A stretch of DNA of 64,000 nucleotides from Octopus sinensis (lineage: Eukaryota). The position numbers were made by a program, and so were the translations under genes. The stretch lies in the NCBI RefSeq assembly GCF_006345805.1, contig NC_042998.1:194866001-194930000 (forward strand), given 5' to 3'. The notes beneath the pieces were generated by a model that saw nothing but the letters and a program-made list of their open reading frames with translations, searched no databases and was not told the origin of the DNA. Position 1 is the first letter of the stretch. Every line of letters begins with the position of its first letter. This document shows, piece by piece, positions 508 to 41,597 of this stretch.

Positions 508-1537
508 TTATAATGGTTTTCCATTACTTATGGTTACTCCTTTTTCCTAAATTTTTATTTCTACATTTCTGTTTGGTTTATCCTAAACCTTGTTTATGTT
601 GTCTTGTGTTTTGTTCAGTTGCCTGGGAACGTCCAGTAGTTTAGCCAGCCACTCTAACCTTGTCTTCTTCATTTGGACTTTTTTCAACCAGACACATGTT
701 AGTCTGCACTTTTTATGTGTGTTTGGTGATAATGCATGATGCTTTCACTTCCATTTATTTTGGTTTCAATTAATACTGGCCTAAATTTAGCTTTCCCTAG
801 GAACAGCTGTTTCTAAATCAGTTTTCTTGCTTGTTGGGAGTTTAAATATACACATTTCCTGTTTATAATTTAGGGTATACAAGATATTGAACTACAGTAT
901 TTTGTTAGTATATTACCTCTGCCCTTTTTTTAATGTACAATTTATGCTTGTATCAATAATTTTGGTCTGACTACTGTACCATATCACTATGGATAGATAG
1001 AATATTCAGTATTAATAGGTTTAAATTCTCTAAAATGTTTAAAAAGCTGAATAAGAGAGTTTTCTTCAAATTTCTATATTACAAATAGTGTCTGTATAAT
1101 TTTGATATCTTACAAGAACATTTAGCATTTTCAAGAAATGCAGATACTTACACAGTAATATCTTTAATATTTGATTTAATTTAATCACTTTTGCTTAACT
1201 ACTAAAATACATTGCCAGATTGTTTTCAGCAGTTTTTATGAAGATCTACACTTCATAAAAAGTGGGGGAAAAAAAAAATTTAATAATCATAATGTTTGTG
1301 TTTTTCTTTTAAATTGAACCAACATGTTTATTTTCATTTAACATTAATCTTGATTAGACTGAATTATTTACAGTGCATTTGGTTTTCATGCTAATTTTAT
1401 TTTACTTTTTTATTTTTGTAACATTCTTAAATGAGAAAGTCAGTTTCTTGCTACTTCTACAGTTTATACATATAGTTCAAGGAGTTAGCCCTTTTTTTTT
1501 TTTACTTCGGTTAATATTAATTTTCACTCTACTTCAG

Positions 1538-1686
1538 GAACATCGAACTGAGATAGACGCCCGTGCTGGTACTTTCCAAGCATTTGAAATGCTTGGTCAG
1601 CAATTACTTCAAAATCAACATTATGCCAGCCCTGAAGTACAACAGAAGTTGGAAGATTTAGCTAAATCTCGTGAGGCATTAGAGCA
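1538..1686 (+). CDS. SPTAN1: alpha-spectrin exon (EHRTEIDAR...REALE)
   Basis: ttcag|GAACAT ... GAGCA|gtaagt; spectrin-repeat peptide. Confidence 0.93.
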
Positions 1687-13600: not shown

Positions 13601-16600
13601 CATGACAGTCTGTACCAGGAATAGCTGGATATTGATGGAGTTGAGTTAAAAAGGTCGAGTTGCGTCCCCTAGACAGTCTGTGGTTTGTGTTTCTGATTCT
13701 CGACCCCATGTCAAATTTATCGATTTTTTTCAGAACTGTGGGAACTTTTCAAAATTTTCGCTGCGTTAGTTTTGAATTATGACATTGGGCTATGTGTGTG
13801 TCAAGTTTCATCAGAATCGGTTGAAAGCCGTGGTCAGGGTGAGGGTACAACCTAACAGACACGCAGACAGACAAACTGCCGTTTATATAGAAAGAGATTT
13901 ATTTGTCTATTATATGATATTAATTCTTATTGTATTTAAGAAGATGGATATTGGATTGATGTGAGACATAGGCATTAAATAGGGAAGTTCCGAGAGCCTG
14001 GAGAGAAATGTGGTGAGACTGAATTGTTGAATATGTAATGTTAAACTGTATAAAAGATACAAATGTGCTGAGTGATTGACTGTACATTAAGTATATCAAC
14101 TGAGGAACGTAGAAAAGACAACTGCACTGTTATGTGTAATGAAAACTGTTTGAGAAAGTTGAATGAAAATATGTATACGATTAGGAGAGGGAGATAGAAA
14201 GATGTAGCAAGAAGTGGGGAGTTGAGTTTTCAAGACATGAGGCCCCATAGAAAAGCTGACAAAATACTGAAACATATGGTATTATAGTATATATTTCTTT
14301 ACTACCCACAAGGGGCTAAACAACACAGAGGGGACAAACAAGGACAGACAAACGGATTATGTCGATTATATCGACTCCATTGCGTAACTGGTACTTAATT
14401 TATTGACCCTGAAAGGATGAAAGGCGACCTCAGCGGAATTTGAACTCAGAAGGTAATGGCAGACGAAATACGGCTACGCATTTCATCCGGCGTGCTAACG
14501 TTTCTGCCAGCTTGCCGCCTATGGTATTATAGTATAGCTGGCCTGTTTAGATTATTATGTGGCATGCTGTTCATTTGCTATATTATCTCTATATACAGAA
14601 ATATAAAGAGGTTCTATCTAGTTTTGTGGCTTATTTTATTAATGACTGCTTTGGAAACAGTGAGATAGATTTTTCAGATTGGGAATAGGGGTAATTAAAT
14701 AAGGTGGATTGGGTTAATGTGTTCAGGTCACTAATTGGAGGTGGAAATCGTTTTCGAGACTAAAGAATTGGTTCCAGAGTACCTTGGGAAAGTTTTTTCT
14801 TTTAAAGCCTTGGGTTCACCTGTTTCTTGAAAGTGGAAGTTAATAGATGGAAACTACAGGAAGCTTTGTCATGTGTCTGTATTTATGACTGTAATCAGTA
14901 TGCCGAGTTGCGTCCCTTTACAGAAAAAGATGACGTAGCCATTTAATCTTTATATATAAAAGTGAGGTTGTGTGCTGTCTGTCTCCTACGATTTAGATTC
15001 CTAACTACTCCCACATTTTGCGGTGCAGTTTAACCAAAACCGGGTATCTTATAGTCGTGATTCATATCGAGCCCTTCTGGGTATTATTAGCGCTCGTCTA
15101 CGATGAGTCTATGATTTAAAAAGAAATTTACCATCAATTTTTCCCATTTTTAATGCATTTTTGGCATATATAAGGGAAGTAACTCTCTAAAAATTTATTA
15201 TTAAATCTCAGAATGTTAAAAGCTACAGTAACACCCCACCCCCTTTGTGGTTAGCCATATTGAGATGGCTATTATACTTTACATCTCTAAAAAATGCTTA
15301 TATAGTTATTTCCCTTACAAACCCGAGCAACGCTGAGCGATACTGCTAGTAGAGTAATAAAGTAAATATTAGACTGAGTAATGAAATTTATATGATTGAC
15401 TCATGCCTCCGCATGGTTCAGTCCAAAGAGTGAAACTAGTAAAGTGAAACTAGGATGAAGTATAGGTTGTGAGGGATATTTCATAACAGAATTGATGGAA
15501 GGGGGAATAGGTTTAGAGAGTCTACTAGTTCTGAGGATTTTAGGGTTAGATTTATTATTTGTTTTGATGTGATTATCGAAAATTAATGCCGTTAAAATTT
15601 CTCATCTCCAATCACCCTTCTCTTCTATAATTTATTGTATAGCTGAGAAATTTCGTATTCAGGATTTCACATTGCTTTTCTTCGTTCAGTGGTCAATAAA
15701 AAAACAAGTACCAGATGTACATTGAAGTTCTAGTTAATTGACAGTAGTACCTTTAGTTACAAAATTATATTAAAAAAAAAAAAAGAATGTAAAGATTGCA
15801 AATGATTCTATTAAATTTTTTTTCAATTTAGGATCGTATCAAAGATTTGAACACTCAAGCTGACCAGTTTTTAGAAGCTGGGGTCTGGGATGTTGACAGT
15901 ATTGCCGAACGTAAGAAGACAATTAATGAAAGATACGAAAGGTAATAATGCTTTTAATAGACTAAACCTTAAATTGTTTAGTTACCTTGTTTTAAAAAAT
16001 ATCCTTTCATCTTTTCTCCTTTTTTTTTTTCATTTCAGAATTAAAGAGCTTGCTGAACAACGCCGTGTTAGGCTCAGTGAGTCTAACACCAGGCACCAGT
16101 TCATGAGAGATATTGATGATGAAGAGGCTTGGATTAAGTATGTTAATTCTTAATTTCTATTTTTGACAGAAATTATAGTTATTATTGTTGGAATTTGGAA
16201 GAAACTTAACAAAAACCATTTTCCATTCTAGAGAAAAGAAAATTCTTGTAAATTCTACTGACTATGGCCGTGATTTAACTGGGGTTCAAAACTTGAGGAA
16301 AAAACACAAACGACTTGAAGCTGAGCTGAATAGTCATGAACCAGCCATCCAGGTAATATCTTTATATTCCAGTTGACATTTCATGGGTGCTTTATATATT
16401 TTCTTTGTATCTTTTGGGATCATTATTATTTTAGATTTGAAATTGCCTTCAATTTGATACTTTTCTTTTCAGTTTGTCCAGGAAACTGGCCGACGTCTGA
16501 TTGCTGAGTCCGATATTAATGTTGCTGACATAGAAGCCCGTCTTGATGGCTTGGCACAAAGTTGGCAAGAACTAAACCAGCTATGTGTCCACAGGTCTGT

Positions 16601-19600
16601 AGCCTTTTCTGGATTTTGCAGAAATAGTCGTTGGCTTCATTATCTATTTTGCTAAAGTCAATTTTGAATTTCATTTCTTATATGGTACTTCTCAATTTTA
16701 CCTCTGGAATAGCACTTATAGAAAGTCTCTTAGTTAGATTGCCAGTTGACTAAGTTTTGCTGTCGCTTGCAGGTGGATGGGAAATAGTCTTTTGCCTGCT
16801 TCCTATACCAATTCAAGGAAGTCCCATTTTAGATCAATGGTGTCAACATGGGTACTCTCAGTAGCATGCCCTCATATTTTGTTGTCTGTATTACAGATTT
16901 AGTATGCTATCTAAATAAGATAAATATTGTTTGATGCTATAATGTACTCTTGTATAAATATATATTCTCTTTGCTTTTAACTTAATATCTGGTTTCTATT
17001 TATATTGTTGCTATTTTATAAAAGCTAACTCTAAATTGTTCATGCTACATAAAGTGGTGCATTTCCGCTTGATATCCTAAGTAATCATTGTTTCTTTTGC
17101 AGAGGTCAGAAACTAGAACAATCATATGCATTCCAACAATTTACAGCCAATGTTGAGGAGGAAGAAGCCTGGATAACTGAGAAACTACATTTGTTATCTG
17201 GTGGAGATTATGGTGACACTATGGCTGCCGTACAGGTAATTTGTTTTCACAAACGTACAGAGTGATTCTTTTAGTAAAATTTTGATTGGAAAGAGTAAGA
17301 ATTTGAAAAATAAGTTACTGTGATCGTTACCAACGTCACCTTACTATCGTTACCGACGTCGCCTTACTATCGTTACCGATGTCACCTTACTGGCACCTGT
17401 GCTAGTGGCATGTGTAAAAGGATTCGAGCGAGGTCGTTGCCAGTACCGCCTGACTGGCCCCCGTGCTGGTGGCATGTAAAAATCACCCACTACACTCTCG
17501 GAGTGGTTGGCGTTCGGAAGGGCATCCAGCTGTAGAAACTCTGCCAAATCAAGATTGGAGCCTGGTGCAGCCATCTGGTTCGCCAGACCTCAGTCAAAAT
17601 CGTCCGACCCATGATAGCATGGAAAGCGGATGTTAAACGATGATGATGACTGTGAAGACATGGTAGTTACTTGATTGACTCAGAATTTCTTACAGTGGGG
17701 ATGAGGTATTAATGAATCACCTTTTTATATGGTGAAGGTGTGGTTTTGGGCATTAAGAAAAACAAAAAATATTCCCACTTTTTTTAGAGTTTTAAATTGA
17801 TCCTTATTTAAAAATCATTTAAAAATAACTTGCGACCAGAAGATAATATAGAACAATGTAGGTGCAGGCATGGCTTTGTGGTTAAGTTTGCTTCCTAAGA
17901 GTGTGGTTTTAGGTTCAGCCCCACTGCATGGCACCTTGAGTGAGTATCTACTATAGCTTCAGGTTGACCAAAGCTTTGTGAGTGAATTTAGACAGAAACT
18001 GAAAGAAGCTTGTAGTGGGGCACGGTATGTGTAATATGTTTATGCTTGTGTCTCCTGGTCCTGACATTACACAATGGTTGTAAACAAGCATCACTATCAT
18101 ACAAGTGGCTGTTTGTTTTCAATCTTACGTGAAAACGTGTTCAGCCATAGGGAAATATTACTTTAAAACAATTGAGGTTTGGTGACAAGAAGAACCTCAA
18201 CAAATTTACAACAACAAATTGTGTCTAATTCATGCAAGCATTGAGAAGTGAACATTAAAACAATAATGGTGACTCTTAAACATGTTTTAGTGAATTTGTA
18301 TTGAGAGAGAGAATTCAGTGTTACATGCATTTGTCATTTGTAAAATACTAGTCAAATTTTATCTTAGCTTCTATATTTATATGGATTTGTCTTATATTGT
18401 TTGTAGGGTCTGCTCAAGAAACATGAGGCTTTTATCACAGACTTCCAAGTTCACAAAGACAGATGTATGGAGATTCAACGAGAGGGGCAGAATTTAATTG
18501 ATGAGGTATGAATTATTTTTATTTTTCTCTTTATATCTTGATTTGTTTATTCCAATAAGGGAGTCACTTTTGTACTGATTAAGATCCTGTTTTGTATTGC
18601 ATATCATAATTTCTGCTGGAGGCAGAATTGTTTTTGTGAATAAAATTGTTTCAACTATAGTTTTTTTTTTTTTTTTTTTTTAACAATTGATAGCATTTCG
18701 AGTAATAATAAGATAACTTTTGTTTTAAATATCATAAAAAAAATGATGCATGTGATATTTGTATTCAATATTTTATTGAATGTCTCTTCAGAACAATCAC
18801 AATGCTCCAGCCATCCAACAACGTATCAATAGTCTCCAAGAAAAGTTGGCCTCCCTTGAGAATGCTGCAGCACAGAGACACACAGGGTTGGTTGACAATT
18901 CTGCCTTCTTACAGTTTATTTGGAAGACTGATGTTGTGGAAAGCTGGATAGGTAGGTGTATATTTTTGTTTTGTTTTGGCTAATATTGGTTGGGTGGAAT
19001 CAACATACGTTTTTGACTGGAGTATTAATGCCTTGCAAATGATTTATTTCATTCCAATAAGGCTAGAGGAAAAGGAATACCTCCTCTGTAGCAAGATGCT
19101 TGTTTCTGTCTCTCTGTCATACTCTAACCTTTCATCATCTGACACAAGATCACTTCCTCCAATGTCCCCTCCCCTCTCAAGAATTCCTTGTCTTGCAAGT
19201 TGCTTGGTAACCCTGCTGGTGCTGATGCCACATAAAATGCATCCTGTCCACACTGTGAAGTGGTTGGCATTTGGAAGGGCATCCAACTGTAAAAACCATC
19301 CCAAAACACCTTGCCTGTGCTGGTGCCATGTAAAATGCACTCAGTCCACTTGGTGGGGTGATTAGTATTAGGAAGGGCATCCAGCCAAAAAAACCATGCC
19401 AAAACAGAGACAGAAACCTGGTGTAGTCTTCTACCTGACTGACTCCTGTCGAGCCATACAACCCATGCCAGGGTTGAAAGGCAGACAGTAAACAATGATG
19501 ATGATGTACATTACCAGTAGTGATTTATTTTTGAATGATGTTAAGTAAAGTCAGTCTTGGCATGATATGAGCCCAGAATGTAGACATAACTAAATACTGA

Positions 19601-22600
19601 AAGCTTTTGTGCTAATGCTTTTGTAAGCTGTATGATATTGGTGAGATTGATGTGGTTGAAGTTTGGCTTATGTGGTTGTAAATTGCAGTCTAATAGAAGG
19701 AAAGTATTCTGGAGGAATGACTTTCTGTAGAGAAAGAACTAGACATAATGGCTAGTGTAGAGTCTAGGGGAACACAGAAAGAGAATAGCAGATGTGTTGG
19801 TTGAGATTGGGTGAAGATGGAATGTAACTAGCTTGCTTTGAGAGATAGGGGATATTGTAGTAGAAAAGACAGTGAAGTGAAAGTGTGCAAGCAAGCTTGA
19901 TGACTTTCTTTTTTGATGTGGTTTCAGATTTGTATTTGTGTAGAAATTGCACTGTTTTAGATGAGGGGTCAGTAGTACGTTATGAATTTCACTTGATCTT
20001 TGTAGAGTCAGCAGTTGTTTGGAGCTCTGAAAAGGAAGGCTGGTTCTTGTGATTATAAGGCTTGTTATTTTGGTCTGATGCACTTCCATTTTTGCTACTC
20101 TATCATCTTCTGAGGAAGAAGTTAATATTAGCAATTAATACAGGTCTGAAAAAATAGTGTTGATAGTTTGTAGTTAAAAAAAATAACTGCTGCTACCAGC
20201 AAATATGGTTTTATAATATTTAATTAGAGACAATAACTGTTACTGGTTGTATAATATCAAATTAGTTACAATAGCGATTATTGGCTATATAATTAATTAC
20301 TGACAGTAGCAATTACTTGTTATATAATATTTAATAAGTGACAATAAAAATCCTGGTTTTGTATTTAATTAGTAACAATACATTCCTGGTTAAAGAAGTG
20401 TTATATTATGTGCTGTTCCTTGTAGCAAACGTTGCAAACTCCTCTGTATATGATAGTGTATTCATAGAAATGGTGTAACACAATTATAAAAGCAGTTCTG
20501 TTGAGCTATGAAGTAACTAACTGCGAATAACTGTTCTAAATTATTTAGGTGAATAATTAATAAGTGAATAACTGTTCTAATTTATTTAATTAGTGATGAA
20601 AACTGTGATTAGAATCCCATTGATATTCTAAATTATTCAAGTCATCTCTAAATGGTGCATTACTTAATTTGTGCTAATGAAAAGACAGTAATGGCAGGTG
20701 TTAAAGTGTTTGGAAGAACTTCAGTGATCCTTTATTTTTGTGTGAAGCATGTATTAAAGGTGTGTGAGAGTGAGAATATCGAGCTAAAATTTAAGAGGCA
20801 GTGTAAAAATATCAATGTCAATACAAATACTTCACCTCACTTTCTTTGATTGTCTGTCTTGGTAACCCTATGTTTATAACATTGACATAACATCACAAAC
20901 AGCACACCCTCCTTCAGAATGAGAAAATATTTCAGCTGCGATTAGTTGCTGACGCTGAGTCACCACTGACACTTCCCTTCCTACAAAACCATTAAGCCCT
21001 CCTCCAAGAGAAGATAATTTGATTGACAGGTGAACTTAAAATAACTATTCTGTCTCTCATTCTTCCCTCATTATCTACAACAGCTATTTCCAACCAACAC
21101 ACTTGGCCTTCTTGCTTTAATCATTCCTCTTATTCCCAACTCCAAACTCTATCTCTGGAATTCTCTCCCTGCTTCATATTTCCTTCATAATTTCTAACTT
21201 TCAATCAGATTGATGTCAACAGGTTAGGAATGCCTGCAAACGCCACAGGTACTCTCCTCCAAAGGCCAGATTAGAAGAACCAGTGAAGACAGAATTGAAA
21301 TGTACAGATGGAAATGGATACGACAGTGTAATTAAGAAGTTTGCTTCACACCCACATAGTTCTGGGTTCGGTCCCATTGTAGTCTTGTGCAAGTGTCCCC
21401 TACTATAGCATTGGGTTAATGAAAACATTGCAAGTGAAATTTTGTGAACAAAAACTGAATTGCTCATTGTGAGTGTGAGCACAGAATGAAAACTCATGAA
21501 GTCGAACAAAAATATCTTCTTGTTAGCAGTTCTGCCTCATTTGTGTCCCTTCACATGCAGGTCAATGAGATTAATAGAAAAAGACCAAAGTACTGTTGTA
21601 GATATAACTGACTAAAATACTTGAAGGTGCCTCAGCATGGCCTCAATCCATCTATAAAGATGAATGGGGAAGTAATGCGTATTGATAACGAGTGATGCTT
21701 TACGAATTATAGAACTAATGGTGATAAATTATTTTTTCTAATTTCAGCGGACAAAGAAACCCAAGTTCGCTCAGATGACTATGGCCGTGACCTTTCCTCT
21801 GTACAGACCCTGTTGACCAAGCAGGTAAATAGTTACATCAACATACTCAATTTATCATAAAATGTATTTTGTGGCTTCAAAAACCTACTTTTGATAATAA
21901 TAATAATGATAATGATTATGATGATGGTCATAAATAATAGTTTCATTAATACTTTTTGCAGGAAACTTTCGATGCTGGACTACAGGCTTTTGAGAAAGAA
22001 GGTATTCATACTATCACCGCCTTAAAAGAACAGCTTATTGCATCCAATCATGCTCAGACTCCGGCCATTGAGAAACGCTACAATGATGTAATTGCACGGT
22101 AGGATATTTACTTCTTCATTGATTATAGTTACTGTTATGTACTTGTTATTGCTGGGGAAGTGTGGTGTACCTGGACCCAAATGTAGATCATCATCGCTTA
22201 ATGTATGCTAGCATGGGTTGGACAATTTGACTGAGGTCTGATGAACCAGATGGCTGCGCCAGACTCCAATCTGATCTGGCAGAGTTTCTACAGCTGGATG
22301 CCCTTCCTAACGCCAGCCACTCCAAGAGTGTAGTGGGTGCTTTTATGTGCCACCGGCACGAGGGCCAGTCAGGCGGTACTGGCAACGGCCACGCTCAAAT
22401 GTTGCTTTTTATGTGCCACCTGCTCAGGAGCCAGCCCAGCGGCACTGGCAATGACCCTGCTTGAATGTTTTTTCACGTGCCACCAGTACAAGTGCCAGTA
22501 GGCAACGCAGGTAACAATCACGCTAGAGTGGTGTTTTTTAAGTGCCATCGGCACGGAGGCCAGCTTGTTGCTCTGGCAACGATCACACTCGTATGGTACT

Positions 22601-22747
22601 CTTAGTGCTCCACTAGCACGGATGCTAGTCATCGAATTTGATTTCAATTTCACTTGCCTCAACAAGTCTTCGCAAGTAGAGTTTAGTGTCCAATGAAGGA
22701 AAGGTATGTATAAGTGGGCTGGTTACACCCCTGGCATTACTGTTTCT

Positions 22748-22816
<69 letters not shown>

Positions 22817-25800
22817 CTAGCAGTATCGCCCGGCGTTGCTCAGGTTTGTAAGGGAAATAACTATAAAGCATTTTTAGAGTTATAGCCAAAAAATAGCAAA
22901 AAATGGGAAAAAAAATTATGGTAAATTTTTTTTGAGTTAAAAAAGGTGGAGTTGCGTCCCCTAGACGGTCTGTGGTTTGGGTTTCTGATTCTCGACCCCA
23001 TGTCGAATTTATCGATTTTTTTCAGAACTGGGGGAACTTTTCAAAATTTTCGCTGCGTTAGTTTTGAATTATGACATTGGGCTATGTGTGTGTCAAGTTT
23101 CATCAGAATCGGTTGAAAGCCGTGGTCAGAGTGAGGGTACGAGAAAACAGACATACAGAAAACGCACAGACAAACTGCCGTTTATATATAGAGAGATATA
23201 TGAATGTGAAGGGCTTTCTATGAAGTCTAAAATTGTGTGAATTCTTTGGCTGCAATTGTTTGTAAAAAGTTGACTAAAATATGATATAATGGAATAATTA
23301 GGTTATTATTAAGGTCTCAGTGGTATCAGCATCAAACTGATGAGAGGCCCTGTATACAGTTGCTTTGACCTGCTAGAAATAGCAGACAAACATGCATCAG
23401 GTCTATCTCTATTGTCTTTAAAAAGGGAAATACAGTGTCCAAAAAAGACAGGATGGTCATAGCTGGATAAGAGCTGACTTGGGAGCTAAACAACTGTTAT
23501 TTTAAATCACTGAGAGATTCTTTACTCTGTCAGTTATATTTGGAAACATCTATGTAATCACTGTATCCTTCTAATCATATAAATTATGTTATTAAAACAT
23601 TTTATTTTGTTAATTTTTCATTACTTTAGATTATATTTCCCTGTTTGTTGCCGCTCACCTCTTCATCTACTGCCAGTACTCCTTTCACTTGATATTCTAA
23701 AGTTTGTTGATAGTGGAAATCTACTTTTTAAATAACTAAACTCTGAGCAAACAAATATTTATAATGCCCCCCCCCCACACACACTTAAATGGTATTTTCA
23801 AGTCAAAAAGCTATGGCCAGTGTTCAGTTCTGGTTCTCTTTTGCATTATGTGAATAAGAAATTAAAATCTTTCACTGGATAGGACATTGCTGTTTTGCAG
23901 GTAATTCACTGCTGCAAGCCAACAAAATAGTTATCAGTTCCATGAACCTGATATTGCTTATAGCAATTAATTATTTCATCCATAGTCTCTGCTTAGAACT
24001 AAGTGGGTTAGACAGTCAAAAGTTATGGTCCCAACTCACGACGAATTGTCTCTTACCCCTTCAGCTTAACCTTCTTTTATTGAAGTCTCAAATATTTGTA
24101 ATTGATTAAATCGAGTCGGTAGATTTATAAATTTCCTTTATGTTGTCCTTTTCAGATGGAAGAAACTTTTGGATGATTCTGAATCCCGTAAACAAAGGTT
24201 GTTGAAACTCCAAGAGCAGTACCGCAAAATTGAAGACCTCTACCTTAATTTCGCTAAGAAGGCTTCAGCTTTTAACAGTTGGTTTGAGAATGCTGAAGAA
24301 GATCTCACTGATCCTGTCAGGTGTAATTCAGTAGAAGAAATTAAGGTAAATATAGCTAGCCAGATTTTCTTCCTGTTATGAATGATTTGAGAATAATTTA
24401 ATATGATCTTTAAACTTGAGTTTATTAGTGCCGTAAAATTCATTTAGTTGTATGGTAATATGTATTTCTATATGTTTGACAAATTGCTATTTGTGTAGGC
24501 CCTGAGGGAAGCACATGACCAATTCAAAGCATCATTAAGTGCTGCTCAGGCTGATTTTAACCAACTCGCCAGTCTGGACAAACAAATAAAGAGTTTTAAT
24601 GTTGGCCCTAACCCTTATACATGGTTCAACATGGATGCATTGGAAGACACTTGGAGAAACCTACAGAAAATCATTAAGGTACAGTATTTCTAGTCACATA
24701 TTTATTTTTGTTCTGTGGTGTATTAGACCTTGTTGTCTTTAACCCTTTCGTTACTGTATTTATTTTGAGATGCTCTGTGTTTCTTTCAGTTACTTTAAAT
24801 ATAACAAAGAATTTAGTAAAATTATTTAGTTATCATTAAGCTAGTGTTGGGAACATAAATTGTGACTAAAGTTTAGTGGAAGATTTTAATTCAAAACTCA
24901 TGAAAACAAGACATTTGTACACAGAGCCAAAGCCGGTTTCAGCTGGGTTGGTAACGAAAGGGTTAAGTGCTGTCTGATGTTTATCAATTTTGTTTCACAC
25001 CATCACATATGTTTATCAAATTCATTGTTCTATAACTTGTTTACAGGAACGTGATGGTGAGCTGAACCGAGAACAACAAAGACAAGAAGAGAATGATCAA
25101 CTTCGTAAACAATTTGCTCAAGCTGCTAATGCTTTCCATTCTTGGCTGACTGAGACAAGGTCTGTATTCATCTGCTGCTGAGTAATAATTCCACTTCTAT
25201 ATTACATACCTTCAGCTGAATTTATGCTAGAGATTTCTTTATCAAAGATATTAAATCTATCTTACTAAGAAGTACAGTATATTTTTTGTGTTCATTAAAA
25301 CATTCCAGATTATTTCTTTAGCTATCATTTTCCAGTAAACTTTATGTATGAAAATTTTATTGGAAGTTAAAATATATGATTCAGATATGGAGTATTGTTT
25401 TCACATAGTTAATGTTTAAATGATTTAATGTTTTGAGTTTTTGCTGTTTAATTGATATATTTTTTATCTTTTCTTTTTTCTACAACTTTTGTTTTCTATT
25501 GTACCTGGTACTTCTACTCTACTACTTGCTGTGAATTCAGACTCTGGCTTTTGGATGGGTTATTACAGTTTTTTTCCTTTTTAGCATGATGCCTCATTTG
25601 GCCCACTGATAAGACAGATCAGTGTGTTTATTTGCCTACTTAGTCCTGAGGATGGTGCTTACCCCTAACATGTTGCAATGCCTCTTTAATACCTTATCTT
25701 ACATTAGGTCCTATTTAAATTTCTCGAGGCATGTTAGCAACTAATCCAGTAATCCATGTATTGGTTCCCTCAAATTAATCTAGTACACATCGTTAATAAA

Positions 25801-28800
25801 ACCAAGCATGAAGTATATTATTAACATAACATCCCAATCTAAATCCCCGGAAGCAGTTGCTTGAAGCTGAAACTTAGGTTGAAGTATTCATAACTGAACA
25901 TTTTTATCATTGTGTGCACTTAGATTTAGTTTAACAACAGTAAAATAATCAACTTACAGATGTAAAAATTAATCAGCTAATTATCATTTAATTGCTCATA
26001 CCCCTACTAAATGACTGACATACTTCAAAACGAAATCTTAACAAATGAAGCTTTTTAGACATTTAGTCTGTCTGAAATAATTGGAAGGAAGGCTGTTTAT
26101 TTAGAAGTGGTTGGGTAAGGGATTGTGTTTGGTAGTGTTGGTGGAGCTGTTGGAGGGAAGAACCAAATTCTTAATTAGCTAACAATACATTGAAATATTA
26201 AAGGATCTTTAAAGTATTGTTAGAAGATAAAATATGTAAGTTGAGTACATGTGTATGAGAATATACTTTCATTACTGGTCACTAACACTGAATCATCTTT
26301 TTGTTTTCTATTAATGATTGGTTTAATATTACAAGTTATATTATGAAAAGTTTATAAATGGTCTTGAATCCTTTACTTCGAATTGTAATGACAGTTTTCA
26401 TTCTCCCTCTTTCCTTGCTTGTTCATGATTCATTCTATTTTCTGAAGTATTTGGTCCCTATAAAAGTAGATACATTTCATTGAATTTCTTATCCAACAAT
26501 TCATTGGGTCTTACCCAACAATTCATTTGATATATTGGTTATTTGTTAACCAGTATATTTATTCCTTTGTTCCTAAAACCTAAATATACTGCTAGATTTT
26601 TTTTCCTTCCCTGGAACCACCTGACTTATACTAACCCAACCTATTATGAGTTACTACTAAGTGTTATGCCTTTTAACAATAATGGTTTAGATTTGTTTTT
26701 CCAAAAGCATGACAAATAGCTTTAAGAAATAAAACAGTTTGCCTGGAATTCTAATGAACTTGCTGATCTCAAGCATGTGTTAAAAAAAAATTTGTATTGT
26801 GAAATATTTCATAGAGTTTTGGTAAAAATGTAAGTTAAATTAGTATTTAAAGTAAATATTTATTGAACAATATTATTATACATGTAAACGAAAACTGTTC
26901 TTCATAAATTGGTTTTCACTACTTATTCATACTGTATCCTTATTTTTTGCTTATTCTGAGATTCCCCTTTTTAGGCTTGTGCCATTCTACATTGGCCTCT
27001 TTAAAGATTACAATTGAACATATTTATTGAAGCTATCAAAATGTCTTTCAATTAATTTTTATTTCTTTACTGTAGATTGTATTGGTTTCTAACATAGGCA
27101 CAAGGCTATTTCTTATGTCAATTTTATTTCTATTGTAATCTATATCTATTTGTATATATTTTTTTTAACAGAGCTGCTATGATGGAGGGCTCAGGAAGTC
27201 TTGAAGATCAGTTGGAAGCTGTTAAGGTGAGAATCAATTGTGTAAATACAAGATTTTAGAATTAGAAGGCAGATATAGAATTGAGTCAGTTTTTTAATCT
27301 CTCATAGTTACTTCATGTATCTCAAATTAAGAATAAGTACACGATATCTCTGTGTTGTAAGATGTGACTAAAAGGGTTTTAAAACATTGCCTCATAAAGC
27401 CTGTTTAACCCATGCCGGCACGAAAAAGCAAACATAAAACATGCACTGTACTTATTAAGATCACACTAATCACTGCATTTGATATTTAAAGTTATGGAAT
27501 TGGTCTCCCTTGCCATTTTTTTAATCAAAATTATTTTTCTGCTCAGAATAAATCATTTGGACAGTGATTGTTCTCACCACTAAGGACATAATTTTTAGTA
27601 AATTTTTTGGCTTGGTTGTTCCAAAAGTATAGTAACCAGAATAAGAACAGGTTGGAAGAAGTTCAGGAAGCTTCTGCCACTGCTGGCAACACAGGTCTTT
27701 CCCTCACAATGAAGGGTAGATTATATAACACTTGTGTAAAAACTGCAATGCTGCATGGTAGTGAGATATGGACCTTGTAAGCAGAGGAACTGAGGGAACT
27801 GGAAAGAAATGAAGCAATCTGACTCTGTTGGATATGCATTGTAAGTGTGCATGAATAACATGGTGCAAAGATGCCATGAGAAAAATAGTACAAGAGAAAT
27901 CAGATGTGAACAAAAAGCAAGACTGCACTGGTATGATCATGTAATGCATGTGGATGGCAAGTGTATAAAGAATTGCCATTCATTTAATGCAAATAGGGTT
28001 TGTAGAAGAGGGAGACCCAGCAAGACATTGACAAAGTGATTAAGGCTGATCTTAGGATGTTGAACCTCATGGAAGGAATGACTGGTGGTACGCAGTTCTC
28101 AAGATCTGCCCAATTTGGTGAAACTAAGTTCTGAAAGTGTGTGTGCATATGTGTGTAGAGTAAGAAACCTATTCTGTCTGGCTCCTTCTTTCATACTCTA
28201 ACCTCTCCTGTCCTACCATAAAGCCACATCTCCTGAGATTTGTAATCTTGTAAGCTGCAAAGCAACATCACTTGTAATCATCATCATCGTCATCTGTTTT
28301 CCATACTGGCATGGGTTGGACAGTTTGACCAGACTGGCATGCTGGAAGACTGCACCAGACTCCAGTTTGATTTGGCATGGTTTTCTATGGCTGGATGCCC
28401 TTCTTAATGTCATCCACTATCTGAGAGTGTAATGGGTGCTTTTATGTGCCACCGGCACGGGTGCCATTTGTGTGACATCAGGCATGAAAAAAGCACCCAG
28501 TACATACTGTAAATTGGTTGGCATTAGGAGGTGCATCCTGTAGAAACCATGCCGCAATAGGCACGTAAAAAGCACCATCTGATTGTGGCCGTTGCCAGCC
28601 TCGTCTGGCCCCCGTGCCGGTGGCACGTAAAAAGCACCATCCGATCGTGGCCGTTTGCCAGCCTCGTCTGGCACCTGTGCAGGTGGCACATAAAAAGCAC
28701 CCACTACACTCTCGGAGTGGTTGGCGTTAGGAAGGGCATCCAGCTGTAGAAACACTGCCAGATCAGACTGCATGGAAAACGGACGCTAAACGATGATGAT

Positions 28801-31800
28801 GATGATGACGACTGAAGTCCTTGGACACACCTGATTCTGTCAGACCATTTCTCCAATGAATTCTTTAAAATGGTTATTGTAGCAGGAGAATTTTATGTTG
28901 TTTCCATTGTCATTTGTATTTGTTTTTCTATGCTTGTATGGGACCCTCTCCAACACAGTGTCTTGCCACTTGTTGCAGCCTTTAGTCCTCTCTTTCCTGA
29001 GATGTACCTTCACCACCTTTTCCTATTGTTTTTCTAGATCTTCCAGTTTTCCTGTTAGTTTATTCATGCTTTTTTACACAATAAAGCATAATGATTTTAC
29101 TTTTTAAGCTTAATCTCATGTCTTGGATACTTAGAACATATTTACAAAGTCAGAAAACAGCACAGCTCCCATGACTTTCGGAAAGATTTTTTCACGCTGA
29201 GAGTTGCTGAAGCATGGGACAAACTGCCGGCATCAGTTGCTAGTTGTCGGAGCACTGCATCCTTCAAAACTTCCATGCTTTCTGAGATTCACCAACACTA
29301 CACTGATTTTCTCCCCTCCATACACACACAAGCATGTATGTGACTCATACATTGTTCGCTTTCCAGACATTTGTACATTACTGCATATGCTTTATATGCA
29401 CTTTTGACAAGTTGTGGTGCACCTGAGCACTGTATACAATAATTTCATTATTATTATAACAATTTCTCATCTTATGTTGCAAGGGATGCTGAAAAGAATC
29501 TTGTAGTCTGAAGTATTAATTTGAAGTTACATACAAATGTTTATTGACTAATTAGGTTAGATCAGCTAAATCAGATTATCTATTTTTATAGTTTGTCATC
29601 TTTAATTTGGACTTCACATTTAGAAGTTAGTATCTGAAAGACTTGTAACTAGTATAATGAAAATATTTCTAACTTGTCGGTATGTAGTAGTAGTAGTAGC
29701 AATGAGAAGTGAATTCTTTAGATGTTATCTTTTGAATGAAAGTACTATGTTCATTTTTGGTATTTTATATTAAATTTTAGCGAAAAGCATCTGAAGTTAG
29801 AGCACAGAAAGGCCAATTAAAACGGATTGAAGATCTTGGTGCAGCCATGGAGGAGAGACTTATTTTAGATAATAGGTAAGAAATCTTTCAAAATAATTTC
29901 CTGCTTTTTATTTCTGGAAATTGTGGTGGTACTATCATTTACATTAAATTACTTATATTTGTTTAATGTTGAAGATAATGGTATTTGATTTTTAATTATA
30001 TATTAATTTTTATCATTTCTTATTAGGTACACAGAACATAGTACTGTTGGTTTGGCCCAGCAGTGGGATCAACTGGACCAATTAGGTATGAGAATGCAAC
30101 ATAACTTAGAACAACAAATCCAAGCTCGGTAAGAGACTATATAGTTTATATATCAGTTCCCTATAAATTGTTTTAATGTTAAATTAATGGTAGCGACTGG
30201 TTGGTTGTTATATGTTACTGTTAGTAATTTGTTTGTTATCATGGATGTAGAACTTGTATATATTGCTAAATTCTCTTAAATATTTCTAGATATGAAGTTT
30301 GGCTCATAGTTTATCCAAATACAGTAATACTTCACTTTACGGGGATGTGCTTTACGAGACCCTGGGTTTATGAGATTTTACAAGTTTTTTCTGTTTATGA
30401 GTTTTTACTTTACTAGTGTTCCCTGGGAACGAATTTGTGTATCGTGGTATTACTGTACTTTGAAACATCTAGTAATTATTGGTAATCACTTTTTCGTCAG
30501 ATCATGGGTTCTGGCTTGCTCCATGTTTTTGACTAAATTGTTATGGCAGAAATAAATAAAATATTGATGTTTGGCTTCTGGAATATTGCCAAGATTTGTA
30601 GAATATTGTATAAAGTATTATGTCCATGACTAGTGAAATAGTTCCAACTAAGCGTCAAAGTAACTCTCTTCCACTTTACTCGTTTGTTTGAACAACATGG
30701 AGGTGATTTCTTCACTTTTTTTTCATTAGCATTTAAACCTTTCAAATTACTATTATTTCTCTTTCCATTACAGAAACCGCAGTGGTGTGTCAGAAGATGC
30801 TTTGCGAGAATTCAGCATGATGTTCAGGTGAGCTGATATAGCAAATTATGATGGTGTAATCTCTTCTCCCTCTTTTTGACTGTACTAGTCTTACCTAAGA
30901 CAGTAAAATTCTAGGAAATCTCATTAAGAGAAAAGTTCTTGTTCAGATGTTAGAATTCTATTCTCAAACTGAAATGTTTTTCCTGAATTATCGTTTTTAT
31001 AGCTGTGAAATTTCACACTCCTGGCTTACTTTGATGTTTCTATTTGACATAACTATCTATTTTCCAGACACTTTGACAAAGACAAGAGTGGCAAACTTGA
31101 CCACCAAGAATTTAAATCTTGCTTACGAGCTTTGGGTTATGATTTACCAATGGTTGAAGAAGGTCAGGTTGACACGGAATTCAAAGCAATTTTGGATACT
31201 GTAGATCCCAACAGGTCAGTAAAATTTTTCATGCTCTTGTTTTTGATTAAATTAAAACCTCATGAATTTTGTATGTATTTTGTTAATTTATAGTAACTAC
31301 TTAGATTCATCTGTAAATTGGTTTCTATGTTAATAGCTTTGTAAAATAAATGGAAAAATAAATGCAACATGATGGTTATGCTAGCCATTCCATTTGAACA
31401 CTGCTTTGAGGTGTTTTAATAATTTTCTGAATCTTGAATGTTTTCTTTTCAATAGTTTTAGAAACAGCTTTTTGGAATTAATCTAAATTATTCACTTTGA
31501 CTATGGAGAGAGAAAAAAACTTAATTATTTTTCTGAATCTAATTTGTTGCAGAGATGGACAAGTCAGTCTGCAAGAATATATGGCATTTATGATTAGCCG
31601 AGAGACCGAAAACGTTCAATCTAGCTCTGAAGTGGAACAAGCCTTCAGAGCACTCACTTCAGGAGAGAAACCTTATATAACAGCCCAAGAACTATATGCA
31701 GTAAGTTTTATGATATTGACTATTTTGAATAATTGTCTTAATGTTAATCTTTTCAAAGAAAAACTTAAAAGAACTCTCTTGAATTTAACCATGATTTTAA

Positions 31801-31993
31801 AGTATTGTCTTATCAACTGTTAGTAGTTTGTTTCCTACCTTTAACTTTGACATTCTTTTCTTTCTAGAACCTGAGCAAAGAACAAGCAGATTATTGCATC
31901 AGTCGTATGAAACCCTACACAGACAAGACTGGTCGGTCAATACCGGATACATACGACTTCACTGAATTCACCAGATCTTTGTTCATCAATTAG
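1538..31993 (+). CDS. SPTAN1: Alpha-spectrin (non-erythroid type), 3' part of a multi-exon gene; 5' exons lie upstream of the window
   Basis: 26 exons with GT-AG boundaries and compatible phases sum to 3249 nt (1082 aa + TAG). Diagnostic peptides: [100 protein letters not shown], and EF-hands [12 protein letters not shown] and [12 protein letters not shown]. Confidence 0.97.
2439..3095 (-). mobile_element. solo LTR, antisense to spectrin
   Basis: TG...CA termini, 5-bp flanks cttgc/gttgc; minus-strand CCAAT (~2890), TATATAAAG (~2828) and AATAAA (~2456) in U3-R-U5 order; CpG-rich relative to the intron. Confidence 0.6.
3325..3514 (+). CDS. SPTAN1: alpha-spectrin exon ([18 protein letters not shown]...RAINSQ)
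   Basis: taaag|TGCTTGG ... TCTCAG|gtatca. Confidence 0.93.
3546..3931 (+). mobile_element. tRNA(Arg)-like SINE, family 2
   Basis: head ggcgcaatggccca.tggttagggcagcggactcgcgg with A/B boxes; near-identical copies at 12339 and 51490. Confidence 0.88.
4043..4146 (+). CDS. SPTAN1: alpha-spectrin exon ([10 protein letters not shown]...DQVLD)
   Basis: tatag|CAAGAG ... GACAG|gtgaga. Confidence 0.9.
4367..4625 (+). mobile_element. RTE-type retroposon 3' end with (GAT)n tail
   Basis: ggaagggcatccagctgtagaaac...catgctagcatgga...gttaaacgatgatgat; repeated many times in the window. Confidence 0.75.
4660..4865 (+). mobile_element. SINE family 3, 3' part
   Basis: reverse complement of the cagtcatttgactg...gtcaagcgatg module seen at 37755 and 63470. 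Confidence 0.7.
6400..7285 (+). mobile_element. decayed RTE LINE fragment plus long 3' UTR with internal ~70-bp repeats and (GAT)n tail
   Basis: [16 protein letters not shown]-type RT remnant at ~6460-6510; same tail as 4367. Confidence 0.72.
7752..7914 (+). CDS. SPTAN1: alpha-spectrin exon ([10 protein letters not shown]...DPSNIQ)
   Basis: tgtag|ATGGGC ... ATTCAG|gtaagg. Confidence 0.93.
8502..9158 (+). mobile_element. two tandem CR1/L2-type LINE 3' ends
   Basis: [21 protein letters not shown]-terminal motif at ~8527 and ~8887; ends aatttcattattatta. Confidence 0.8.
9581..9616 (+). CDS. SPTAN1: candidate alternative cassette exon of alpha-spectrin ([12 protein letters not shown])
   Basis: ctgaccattgcag|GAG...GAG|gtacaa; 36 nt, phase 0-0, no stop; flanked by pyrimidine tracts; lies at the NIQ/SKHQ junction. 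Confidence 0.45.
11716..11800 (+). CDS. SPTAN1: alpha-spectrin exon ([13 protein letters not shown]...TGN)
   Basis: ctcag|AGCAAA ... AACA|gtaagt. Confidence 0.92.
12111..12295 (+). CDS. SPTAN1: alpha-spectrin exon ([14 protein letters not shown]...DFWLGE)
   Basis: tgtag|ACTTG ... GGTGAG|gtacga. Confidence 0.93.
12339..12722 (+). mobile_element. tRNA(Arg)-like SINE, family 2
   Basis: 12-bp TSD agtttatcatca (12327-12338 / 12723-12734). Confidence 0.9.
12814..12918 (+). CDS. SPTAN1: alpha-spectrin exon ([13 protein letters not shown]...GAHE)
   Basis: catag|GTGGAA ... CATGAG|gtaagt. Confidence 0.93.
13031..13897 (-). mobile_element. non-autonomous Helitron carrying a PIF1-like helicase fragment
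   Basis: 5' TC, 3' hairpin + CTAG, inserted at A|T; minus-strand peptides [46 protein letters not shown] (frameshifted). Confidence 0.9.
14290..14520 (-). mobile_element. SINE family 1
   Basis: reverse complement of the family 1 head and core. Confidence 0.85.
14947..15349 (+). mobile_element. non-autonomous Helitron
   Basis: a|TCtttatatataaaag ... cccgagcaacgctgagcgatactgCTAG|t. Confidence 0.82.
15832..15941 (+). CDS. SPTAN1: alpha-spectrin exon (DRIKDLNTQ...INERYE)
   Basis: tttag|GATCGT ... GAAAG|gtaata. Confidence 0.92.
16039..16137 (+). CDS. SPTAN1: alpha-spectrin exon (IKELAEQRR...EEAWI)
   Basis: ttcag|AATTAA ... ATTAA|gtatgt. Confidence 0.92.
16232..16352 (+). CDS. SPTAN1: alpha-spectrin exon ([14 protein letters not shown]...HEPAIQ)
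   Basis: tctag|AGAAAA ... ATCCAG|gtaata. Confidence 0.93.
16473..16594 (+). CDS. SPTAN1: alpha-spectrin exon (FVQETGRRL...LCVH)
   Basis: ttcag|TTTGTC ... CACAG|gtctgt. Confidence 0.88.
17103..17235 (+). CDS. SPTAN1: alpha-spectrin exon (GQKLEQSY...DTMAAVQ)
   Basis: tgcag|AGGTCA ... GTACAG|gtaatt. Confidence 0.93.
17320..17650 (+). mobile_element. RTE-type 3' end with (GAT)n tail
   Basis: same module as 4367 and 7100; 5' end has three tandem ~21-bp atcgttaccgacgtcaccttact units. Confidence 0.78.
17860..18270 (+). mobile_element. diverged tRNA-derived SINE (family 3-related head)
   Basis: ggtgcaggcatggct...ggttcagccccactg...ctactatagc pattern. Confidence 0.6.
18407..18505 (+). CDS. SPTAN1: alpha-spectrin exon (GLLKKHEAF...NLIDE)
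   Basis: tgtag|GGTCTG ... GATGAG|gtatga. Confidence 0.93.
18792..18951 (+). CDS. SPTAN1: alpha-spectrin exon (NNHNAPAIQ...DVVESWI)
   Basis: ttcag|AACAAT ... GATAG|gtaggt. Confidence 0.93.
19215..19506 (+). mobile_element. diverged RTE-type 3' end
   Basis: ggaagggcatcca motif twice; (GAT)n tail. Confidence 0.65.
20850..21225 (+). mobile_element. decayed CR1/Jockey-type LINE 3' fragment
   Basis: LWNSLPA-like motif (ctctggaattctctccctgct) in C/T-skewed sequence. Confidence 0.4.
21748..21824 (+). CDS. SPTAN1: alpha-spectrin exon ([25 protein letters not shown])
   Basis: ttcag|CGGACA ... AAGCAG|gtaaat. Confidence 0.93.
21962..22098 (+). CDS. SPTAN1: alpha-spectrin exon ([11 protein letters not shown]...DVIA)
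   Basis: tgcag|GAAACT ... GCACG|gtagga. Confidence 0.93.
22168..22738 (-). mobile_element. RTE-type long 3' UTR element, antisense
   Basis: reverse complement of 6720-7285. Confidence 0.8.
22817..23196 (-). mobile_element. non-autonomous Helitron in a (TA)n tract
   Basis: 5' TC and 3' CTAG with hairpin; 5' ~260 bp nearly identical to 13640-13897; 3' part matches 15285-15349. Confidence 0.85.
24156..24345 (+). CDS. SPTAN1: alpha-spectrin exon (WKKLLDDS...CNSVEEIK)
   Basis: ttcag|ATGGAA ... ATTAAG|gtaaat. Confidence 0.94.
24499..24678 (+). CDS. SPTAN1: alpha-spectrin exon (ALREAHDQF...NPYTWF...LQKIIK)
   Basis: tgtag|GCCCTG ... ATTAAG|gtacag. Confidence 0.94.
24743..24962. mobile_element. 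piggyBac-type MITE
   Basis: TTAA TSDs; 12-bp TIR ccctttcgttac / gtaacgaaaggg. Confidence 0.88.
25047..25159 (+). CDS. SPTAN1: alpha-spectrin exon (ERDGELNRE...HSWLTET)
   Basis: tacag|GAACGT ... ACAAG|gtctgt. Confidence 0.93.
25541..25558 (+). CDS. SPTAN1: candidate 18-nt microexon of alpha-spectrin ((R)LWLLDG)
   Basis: ttgctgtgaattcag|ACTCTGGCTTTTGGATGG|gttatt; phase 2-2; peptide matches the vertebrate alphaII-spectrin TYLLDG segment at the same position. Confidence 0.75.
27172..27226 (+). CDS. SPTAN1: alpha-spectrin exon ([18 protein letters not shown])
   Basis: aacag|AGCTGC ... GTTAAG|gtgaga. Confidence 0.92.
27640..28130 (+). mobile_element. decayed RTE LINE RT C-terminal fragment
   Basis: [43 protein letters not shown] motifs with stops and frameshifts. 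Confidence 0.82.
28278..28810. mobile_element. two RTE-type 3' ends in opposite orientation
   Basis: (CAT)n at 28278 and (GAT)n at ~28790; mirrored ggaagggcatcc modules. Confidence 0.75.
29055..29457 (+). mobile_element. CR1/L2-type LINE 3' end with the same 5' leader as 8755-9158
   Basis: near-identical to 8755-9158 from ttagtttattcatgct onward. Confidence 0.82.
29781..29875 (+). CDS. SPTAN1: alpha-spectrin exon (RKASEVR...ERLILDN)
   Basis: tttag|CGAAAA ... AATAG|gtaaga. Confidence 0.93.
30027..30128 (+). CDS. SPTAN1: alpha-spectrin exon ([13 protein letters not shown]...QQIQA)
   Basis: attag|GTACAC ... GCTCG|gtaaga. Confidence 0.95.
30322..30455. mobile_element. Tc1/mariner (pogo-like) MITE
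   Basis: TA flanks; TIR cagtaatac / gtattactg. Confidence 0.7.
30774..30827 (+). CDS. SPTAN1: alpha-spectrin exon ([17 protein letters not shown])
   Basis: tacag|AAACCG ... TTCAG|gtgagc. Confidence 0.93.
31068..31214 (+). CDS. SPTAN1: alpha-spectrin exon, EF-hand 1 ([20 protein letters not shown]...VDPN)
   Basis: tccag|ACACTT ... AACAG|gtcagt. Confidence 0.95.
31553..31700 (+). CDS. SPTAN1: alpha-spectrin exon, EF-hand region ([20 protein letters not shown]...ELYA)
   Basis: tgcag|AGATGG ... TATGCA|gtaagt. Confidence 0.95.
31868..31993 (+). CDS. SPTAN1: alpha-spectrin last coding exon ([10 protein letters not shown]...FTRSLFIN*)
   Basis: tctag|AACCTG ... TAG; typical alpha-spectrin C-terminus. 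Confidence 0.94.
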   Translation, partial: NLSKEQADYCISRMKPYTDKTGRSIPDTYDFTEFTRSLFIN

Positions 31994-39773: not shown

Positions 39774-40719
39774 ATGTTTGTATATAGATATATGAATGCA
39801 TGCGTGCATGTATGTACACATCCTGTATGTATCTATATACTTATCTCATCTAAATTATTAAAAAAACAAGACGTTAAAAAAATAAAATGTCTAATATACA
39901 GAGAAATCTTAAAGCTTAGAGCCTTTCACTTGCACAATGGATGGCACAATATAAATATAGTGTGTCATAGTAAATGTATGCACACCGTTTGAAGACAAAG
40001 GCATAATGCTGTAGAAATGTCTGAGATAAAATTCTTTTCATAGATATTAATTTGAAAAAAACGTTAAGTTGAAAAAAATACGAATAGCAACGACAGTACC
40101 GACAATACTATTCCATCTTTTATAAACGTTGTGGCTCAAAACAAGCAATTGATTTTCATCATCCCCCAAAACAGGTGAAGAAATAGTCGACGTATGTGAC
40201 AAAGACAAGTACTTCCTTACTTGACGAATTCATCTAGAAAAGAGCGAGGAATTGAGGAGGGATATTCCCATTTTTCAAAAGATAGAGGAATCTTCTATGT
40301 GTCTTCAACAGAGGAGTTAGAAGGAGTCCTGGTCGATGCGAAGCAGGATGCGTGCTCCATCAATCGGGACAAGACATTTAGAAATATATCTGGGTTTTTA
40401 AAAATCGAGAACCAGGCGATGAGATAGGTAGAGTTAATGTGCCATACAGCTACCCACGGACTGGTTCCTTAGTACATGGTTCTCAGCAAGCAATATTGGA
40501 TCAGACGTTGACACTTGGCTTATCTCAAACAGAGGTGTCTTCACATATGCCTTAAGCTTTACCGAGTACTCTTATAGTCATAGAGGATCATCAAATATCC
40601 CTACAGACACCAATTGATCACATATTGTTGGGGTTCGCCACATGCCAGTACAGTTGTGTGAATAATAATAATCCTCATTGACACCGTGAAAGATCAGGTA
40701 GTCGATTCCATTTTAAAGG

Positions 40720-40834
40720 ATTGTTGTTGTTGTTGTTGTTGTTGCTGTTGCTGCTGCTGCTGCTGCTGCTGTTGTTGTTGTTGTTGTCGTCGTCGTCGTC
40801 GTCGTCGTTGTTGTCGTTGTTGTCGTTGTTGTCG

Positions 40835-40886
<52 letters not shown>

Positions 40887-40914
40887 GTTGTTGTTGTTGT
40901 TGTTGTTGTTGTTG

Positions 40915-40946
<32 letters not shown>

Positions 40947-40977
40947 TTGTTGTTGTTGTTGTTGCTGTTGTTGCTGC

Positions 40978-41037
<60 letters not shown>

Positions 41038-41075
41038 CGTTGTCGTCGTTGTCGTTGTTGTTGTTGTTGTTGTTG

Positions 41076-41124
<49 letters not shown>

Positions 41125-41555: not shown

Positions 41556-41570
41556 TTATTTATTTATTTA

Positions 41571-41597
<27 letters not shown>

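What the first reader, a model, noticed from the sequence alone, without database searches (positions are those of the whole stretch)
25541..25558. 18-nt microexon matching the vertebrate repeat-21 (alpha-LELY type) exon
Seen: ag|ACTCTGGCTTTTGGATGG|gt, phase 2-2, turning TETR-AAMM into TETR-LWLLDG-AAMM. It has a long U-rich tract with UGC ~14 nt upstream, a weak donor, a 7-bp hairpin (cactgat/atcagtg) ~45 nt downstream, and a 2-kb intron without recognisable TEs. Established: vertebrate SPTAN1 has TYLLDG here; the 18-nt exon 46 of SPTA1, partly skipped in the alpha-LELY allele, lies in the alpha/beta dimer nucleation region; upstream UGC marks SRRM3/4 (eMIC)-regulated microexons. Inference: an ancient bilaterian microexon tuning spectrin dimerisation, easily missed by annotation.
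Basis: partly seen in the sequence, partly recalled or inferred. Interest (0 to 1): 0.75.

Follow-up and report, generated by a model that had tools for sequence, protein, structure and literature searches.

The report
Ancient optional spectrin microexon in octopus
An octopus alpha-spectrin gene has an 18-base exon that is spliced in or out and adds six amino acids where mammalian red-cell spectrin carries a similar six-residue piece (likely the exon skipped in a common human low-expression allele), so it is likely a very old optional exon, already in gene databases, whose effect on spectrin assembly is untested.

Summary
The exon is real. 25541-25558 is an 18-nt, phase 2-2 cassette exon of octopus alpha-spectrin. 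Spliced contigs show inclusion in 5 of 7 laid runs (roughly 54-64% by contig depth); one run looks skip-only. RefSeq already has it (9 of 15 listed Octopus isoforms), so annotation did not miss it. An insert at the same residue occurs in other molluscs, an annelid, a brachiopod, centipedes (identical LWLLDG), chelicerates, insects, a hemichordate and a starfish, often as an optional isoform. Pig SPTA1 has AYFLDG there. Homology to human exon 46 is likely; SPTAN1 was not retrieved. A model puts the insert at the end of helix A of the last repeat, pushing the next six residues into the A/B loop. Unlike alpha-LELY, skipping is the common invertebrate form, so it is probably not destabilising here. 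The splice signals fit the eMIC code, but tissues were unknown, and fly, mouse and human eMIC tables do not list the same-site exon. The hairpin is chance-level.

The parts
25541..25558 (+). 18-nt cassette microexon, phase 2-2, adds LWLLDG after R of TETR in the last spectrin repeat (alpha-21)
   Evidence: joints and loose ends; RefSeq isoforms
25047..25159 (+). upstream constitutive exon (helix A of the repeat up to TETR); donor AAG|gtctgt
27172..27226 (+). downstream constitutive exon ([18 protein letters not shown]); its first six codons resemble the insert in pattern
25438..25540 (+). extended acceptor region: longest AG-free zone of the gene, pyrimidine-rich tract, loose YTRAY branch-point matches at -93/-89, TGC at -14, purine-rich last bases
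25559..25564 (+). weak donor (TGG|gttatt), lowest score among 25 donors of the gene
25604..25624 (+). 7-bp hairpin with 7-nt loop; chance-level, not counted as functional
25160..27171 (+). 2012-nt host intron (381 nt + exon + 1613 nt); no window-shared repeats; few substitutions near the exon among laid runs
1535..31993 (+). 3' half of the alpha-spectrin gene (about residue 1357 of the longest stored isoform to the stop codon); the 5' half lies before the window

Best explanation
This is an alternatively spliced 18-nt exon of octopus alpha-spectrin, likely inherited from the bilaterian ancestor and likely homologous to SPTA1 exon 46, whose six residues are predicted to replace the last turn of helix A of the final spectrin repeat and to lengthen the following loop, which would give two working isoforms that differ next to the alpha/beta pairing site. 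Shown: the splice sites, both mRNA forms, an insert at the same residue across protostomes and in two invertebrate deuterostomes, and AYFLDG at that residue in pig SPTA1. Predicted: with the exon, LWLLD ends helix A and GAAMMEGTGT forms a 10-residue, low-confidence loop. Inferred, not modelled: without it AAMME ends the helix and the loop shrinks to about 4 residues. Inferred: a weak donor and a long AG-free, UGC-bearing acceptor make skipping the default and inclusion dependent on an activator, most plausibly the eMIC form of Srrm2/3/4 (about 45%). Inferred and untested: a change in alpha/beta affinity or in contacts at the actin junction (about 40%).
For: Splicing. Conservation: identical LWLLDG in cuttlefish, scallops, abalones, a freshwater mussel and two centipedes; MWLLDG, YWLLDG, MWLLEG or MWLLDP in snails, spiders, scorpion, mites, an annelid, oyster, mussel and a brachiopod; 8-residue versions in beetles, thrips and locust, 10 in flies; DYVVMGGG in a hemichordate, TIINR in one starfish. 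Both isoforms are on record for octopus, cuttlefish, abalone, scallop, brachiopod, annelid, snails, a mite, thrips, flies, hemichordate and starfish. Pig SPTA1 reads ETR(2175)-AYFLDG, 3 of 6 identical. Human exon 46 begins at c.6531, the third base of codon 2177, the same phase as here. AlphaFold on 70 sequences (mean pLDDT 82.6): helix 185-243 ends at the D of the insert, loop 244-253. Interchangeability: a tick isoform has MWLLDG in place of the xxMMEG hexapeptide, and HMMER aligns skip-form TSMMEG onto AYFLDG. Skip spacing (W to L = 15) is the mode, 34 of 64 parsed distant representatives. Alpha-20/21 pairs with beta-1/2 (PMC4466138 passage). An eMIC-like exon is in the genome.
Against: Intron positions outside octopus were not seen, only protein inserts. 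The starfish and hemichordate inserts are divergent and could be independent gains in an old intron. Many isoforms and taxa show no insert (202 of 329 parsed stored proteins, redundant; none in the barnacle, horseshoe crab, hymenopteran, Asterias, Patiria or Glandiceps entries read). Only the inclusion form was modelled, from an unnamed relative, and the loop is its least reliable part (pLDDT < 50 at 246-249). Contig depths are rough. The same-site exon is not listed as eMIC-dependent in the fly, mouse or human tables searched. There is no CUAAY branch point.
Confidence: 0.62

Rival explanations
1. It is a bona fide neural, eMIC-dependent microexon in octopus (and perhaps ancestrally), and the partial inclusion reflects neurons mixed with other cells. 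This can hold together with the best explanation; it is a claim about regulation.
For: Longest AG-free zone, highest pyrimidine fraction, TGC at -14 and weakest donor match the code described in PMC8797185; eMIC-like exon over the Pfam cut-off in the genome; one run, X13, is skip-only while five others include at 54-64%.
Against: Tissue labels are not shown by the tool. The fly same-site exon is absent from the Drosophila exon-group sheet; in mouse and human the eMIC target in this gene is the 15-nt exon elsewhere. The 2026 preprint names only APBB and MADD as bilaterian-ancestral neural exons. No CUAAY, one CUCU only.
Confidence: 0.4
2. Repeated gain: the intron after TETR is old and permissive, and small exons arose there separately in protostomes, ambulacrarians and vertebrates, converging on a hydrophobic-acidic-Gly helix end.
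For: Divergent deuterostome inserts of 5 and 8 residues; another shared hotspot in this gene, where octopus has a 36-nt exon at the junction that holds the vertebrate 15-nt exon; the insert resembles the next six codons (8 of 18 nt, p = 0.08), as a local duplication could.
Against: Identity between octopus and centipede, and aromatic-hydrophobic-L-D-G with the same length in pig SPTA1, are hard to reach by chance.
Confidence: 0.15
3. It works as in alpha-LELY: the skipped form is unstable or cannot pair, and skipping only doses functional alpha-spectrin.
For: Reviews state that exon-46 skipping halves alpha-spectrin and impairs stable dimers; title of Wilmotte 1997 seen in reference lists.
Against: The skipped form is about 40% of transcripts in most runs and about all in X13, is the only form in the entries read for several taxa, and has the modal spacing among distant relatives. 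In SPTA1 the residues after the insert are SLLKETG, one shorter and without xxMMEG, which would explain a vertebrate-only dependence.
Confidence: 0.07
4. Splicing noise or a chance ag..gt match without function.
For: 7 such patterns lie in this intron.
Against: High inclusion in 4 of 5 studies, protein-level conservation across phyla, and fewer substitutions near the exon (1 of 21 within 250 nt, 5.4 expected; p = 0.016, or 0.09 after merging clusters).
Confidence: 0.01

Closest known systems
SPTA1 exon 46 (partly skipped in the alpha-LELY allele, c.6531-12C>T)
   Same: Same repeat, same insertion point after the R of ETR, six residues, 3 of 6 identical to pig AYFLDG, same start phase.
   Different: There, skipping is caused by an intron variant and lowers functional protein; here both forms are abundant and the skipped form is the common invertebrate one. 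Downstream residues differ (SLLKETG against AAMMEGSG).
SRRM3/4 (eMIC)-dependent neural microexons, e.g. the 15-nt SPTAN1 exon (HsaEX0061551, MmuEX0044723)
   Same: Short, frame-preserving, same gene family; UGC, long AG-free zone and weak donor match the published code.
   Different: The known eMIC target in SPTAN1 lies at another junction; neural specificity and eMIC dependence of this exon are not shown.
RefSeq isoforms of Octopus bimaculoides and O. sinensis spectrin alpha chain (e.g. XP_014784352.1, XP_036356528.1)
   Same: Contain exactly this insert; skip isoforms XP_014784353.1 and XP_036356527.1 lack it.
   Different: Automatic models, without comment on regulation, age or homology.
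Bilaterian-ancestral microexons of APBB1/2/3 (6 nt) and MADD (9 nt), bioRxiv 10.64898/2026.09.05.749416
   Same: Very small in-frame exons kept across protostomes and deuterostomes.
   Different: Those were inferred to be neural-specific throughout; the main text does not mention spectrin; its supplementary datasets could not be seen.

Membership tests
SPTA1 exon 46 homologue | Lies in the last spectrin repeat of an alpha-spectrin, before the EF hands | tested here: met
SPTA1 exon 46 homologue | Six residues inserted directly after the R of ETR, with a similar sequence | tested here: met
   pig SPTA1 R2175 + AYFLDG; unnamed SPTA1-like P0450 has DHFLDG
SPTA1 exon 46 homologue | Exon starts at the third base of that Arg codon and is 18 nt (phase 2-2) | tested here: inconclusive
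   c.6531 = base 3 of codon 2177 fits, but human-pig numbering offset and exon length are recalled; no vertebrate genomic DNA was available
   no SPTAN1 sequence came up; motif not found in papers
alpha-LELY-type behaviour | Skipped chain unstable and unable to form dimers | not testable with these tools
   indirect evidence points against it:
eMIC-dependent neural microexon | 3-27 nt, frame-preserving, alternatively spliced | tested here: met
eMIC-dependent neural microexon | UGC close to the acceptor and a long AG-free zone | tested here: met
   TGC at -14 (2 of 24 constitutive acceptors have one); 104 nt, longest of 25
eMIC-dependent neural microexon | Long pyrimidine tract rich in UCUC | tested here: inconclusive
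   highest pyrimidine fraction, but one CUCU only and a YYYY count within the constitutive range
eMIC-dependent neural microexon | Strong CUAAY branch point (an enrichment in the published set) | tested here: not met
   only loose YTRAY matches at -93 and -89
eMIC-dependent neural microexon | eMIC-encoding gene in the genome | tested here: met
   PF15230 match over the cut-off, locus L001; one exon only
eMIC-dependent neural microexon | Neural-specific inclusion | not testable with these tools
   runs carry no tissue labels
eMIC-dependent neural microexon | Inclusion depends on SRRM3/4 or eMIC | not testable with these tools
   same-site exons are not listed as targets in the fly, mouse and human tables searched

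The most novel reading that the evidence does not exclude
A bilaterian-ancestral, activator-dependent microexon switches the helix end and loop of the spectrin dimer-nucleation repeat in neurons. Invertebrates keep both forms because the next six codons can stand in for it; vertebrate red-cell spectrin lost that stand-in, so the human alpha-LELY allele is a return to the ancestral skipping pattern in a protein that can no longer tolerate it.
Probability: 0.25. Interest if true: 0.65.

Novelty: new member of a known kind. Interest (0 to 1): 0.42.

Why it matters
Very few microexons can be traced to the bilaterian ancestor (one 2026 preprint names two neural ones), and this exon keeps its six residues between octopus and centipede and nearly so in a mammal. 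It links a well-known human modifier allele to a normal splicing choice in invertebrates and gives a simple, testable reason why skipping harms red-cell spectrin but apparently not invertebrate spectrin. The exon itself is already in automatic annotations, and its regulation and effect are untested, which limits the surprise.

Tried and rejected
Hairpin as a regulator: rejected; no Rfam match above gathering score in the intron (one weak hit, E = 0.53). 'Missed by annotation': rejected. No RNA holder listed on record in the run search; runs were judged spliced from GT..AG joints and from exon depth far above intron depth. X5 showed no inclusion contig, but its skip joint carries only 48-63% of flank depth, so it was not counted as skip-only. 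Single-sequence fold was too poor to use (mean pLDDT 49.4); the skipped form was not folded. No complex was predicted: no beta-spectrin chain was in hand, and a textbook pair would not decide between isoforms. Origin by tandem duplication of the next 18 nt: not shown (p = 0.08). Vertebrate SPTAN1 was not obtained. Atlas search added nothing. Ten literature searches found no description of this exon in invertebrates or of its homology to exon 46; Wilmotte 1993, the cardi+ paper, Syrbe 2017 and one DOI tried from recall were not held. Earlier scan notes were unrelated. One constitutive junction (near 16625-17101) could not be mapped and was left out of the 24-intron comparison.

Full report
Setting. 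The window holds the 3' half of an alpha-spectrin gene on the + strand, about 1535 to 31993; its exons match stored Octopus proteins, most at 90-100%. Twenty-four introns were mapped to the base; one junction near 16625-17101 failed and was left out.

Observation. The 18-mer lies at 25541-25558 between AG and GT, 381 nt after exon 25047-25159 and 1613 nt before exon 27172-27226. Joined in frame it gives TETR-LWLLDG-AAMM; both forms are substrings of stored RefSeq proteins. The bare pattern is not special (7 candidates in the intron, 3 stop-free), so it needed outside evidence.

Splicing. Seven of 21 listed runs were laid, all as contigs, none on record as RNA. One search shows the joint 25159->25541 (GT..AG) in 4 of 4 runs and the downstream exon as the loose end behind 25558 in 3 of 4. 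One search shows the skip joint in 4 of 4. X1 has a 76-nt contig, 18-19 longer than the skip contigs, and raised depth over the exon. Depth ratios give 54-64% inclusion in X1, X7, X9, X12 and X17 (4 studies). X13 is skip-only (skip depth 1.03-1.10 of the flanks). X5 is undecided. Contig depth is a rough measure and tissues are not given.

Annotation. Nine of 15 listed Octopus RefSeq isoforms (of a 34-member cluster) carry the insert. It is not missed.

Age. Among 443 stored proteins, 329 had a parsable site: 202 without insert, 47 with LWLLDG, the rest variants (isoforms are redundant). Named carriers: cuttlefish, scallops, abalones, Sinanodonta and two centipedes (LWLLDG); snails, spiders, scorpion, mites (MWLLDG); Owenia (YWLLDG); oyster and mussel (MWLLEG); Lingula (MWLLDP); clams (7-8 residues); beetles, thrips, locust (8); flies (10); Ptychodera (DYVVMGGG, 6 of 11 isoforms); Acanthaster (TIINR). 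No insert was seen in the barnacle, horseshoe crab, hymenopteran, Asterias, Patiria or Glandiceps entries read. Pig SPTA1 (PDB 8IAH chain 8) reads WILETR(2175)-AYFLDG-SLLKETGTLE. [quoted passage not shown] No vertebrate SPTAN1 sequence was retrieved. These are protein inserts; exon boundaries were seen only in octopus.

Mechanism, protein. An AlphaFold model of an unnamed relative with the insert (70-sequence alignment, mean pLDDT 82.6) ends helix A at the D of LWLLDG and leaves a 10-residue loop with pLDDT < 50 at 246-249; its best PDB match is the modelled C-terminal part of SPTA1 in the spectrin-actin junction. The insert and the next six residues share the pattern x-x-hydrophobic-hydrophobic-acidic-Gly. 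A tick isoform uses MWLLDG instead of that hexapeptide, and HMMER aligns skip-form TSMMEG onto AYFLDG. I infer that either hexapeptide can end the helix, so the exon swaps the helix end and adds six residues to the loop. The skip spacing is the mode among distant, unnamed representatives (34 of 64 parsed, of 146 new proteins), so skipping is probably the older state. Repeats 20-21 make the high-affinity contact with beta 1-2 (PMC4466138 passage), so an effect on pairing is plausible but untested. In SPTA1 the stand-in is gone (SLLKETG, one residue shorter), which would explain why exon 46 is needed there (Wilmotte 1997, title only) while the skipped form is abundant in octopus.

Mechanism, splicing. 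Against 24 constitutive introns the exon has the longest AG-free zone, the highest pyrimidine fraction, the weakest donor and a TGC at -14, matching most of the eMIC code in PMC8797185 (passage). It lacks CUAAY and has one CUCU. The genome has an eMIC-like exon. Against this, alpha-Spec is absent from the Drosophila exon-group sheet (absence could reflect coverage filters), and in mouse and human the SPTAN1 eMIC target is a 15-nt exon at another junction (PMC8797185 table S2; PMC7935315 supplements, files 13-19 not searched; PMC12626420 passages and supplements, file 13 not searched). Membership is therefore left open. Substitutions among laid runs are fewer near the exon (p = 0.016, or 0.09 with clusters merged), which is suggestive only. 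The hairpin is chance-level.

Literature. Ten searches found no account of this exon in invertebrates; the library lacks most subscription papers. The 2026 preprint (passages and section 9) names two ancestral neural microexons and never mentions spectrin in its main text; its supplements were not seen and may list this exon. PMC3249148, PMC6521328 and PMC6745925 were read as passages only.

Verdict. Observation confirmed; interpretation partly supported. A new member of a known kind: an old, optional spectrin microexon, likely homologous to SPTA1 exon 46, already annotated automatically. Interest 0.42.

Noticed in passing
window 9581-9616: A 36-nt alternative exon (12 residues, phase 0-0; 6 of 15 listed Octopus isoforms) sits at the same junction as the vertebrate SRRM4-dependent 15-nt SPTAN1 exon, with unrelated sequence and no TGC at -22..-7; seen only in Octopus among stored proteins.
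   Followed up: partly
window 11794 and 11800: Two donors 6 nt apart both fit stored isoforms (a 2-residue difference, 1 of 15 isoforms).
   Followed up: no
window 39972-48198 and 53545-61529: Inverted duplication of about 8 kb at 98% identity, with AT-rich tandem repeats between the arms; a real inversion-duplication or an assembly artefact.
   Followed up: no
window 1687-3324: The only other long intron tested that shares no repeat with the rest of the window; it might hide a regulated element.
   Followed up: no
P0330 (tick isoform X2): MWLLDG stands in place of the usual xxMMEG hexapeptide instead of being added to it.
   Followed up: partly
L001 (G000:C11337, - strand): Exon with a PF15230 match over the cut-off, the likely eMIC part of octopus Srrm2/3/4, on a small unplaced contig.
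   Followed up: partly
Octopus proteins P0151, P0193, residues about 172 and 1336: Two more optional inserts (6 and 22 residues) in the same protein; neither was found in this window, so they likely lie upstream.
   Followed up: no
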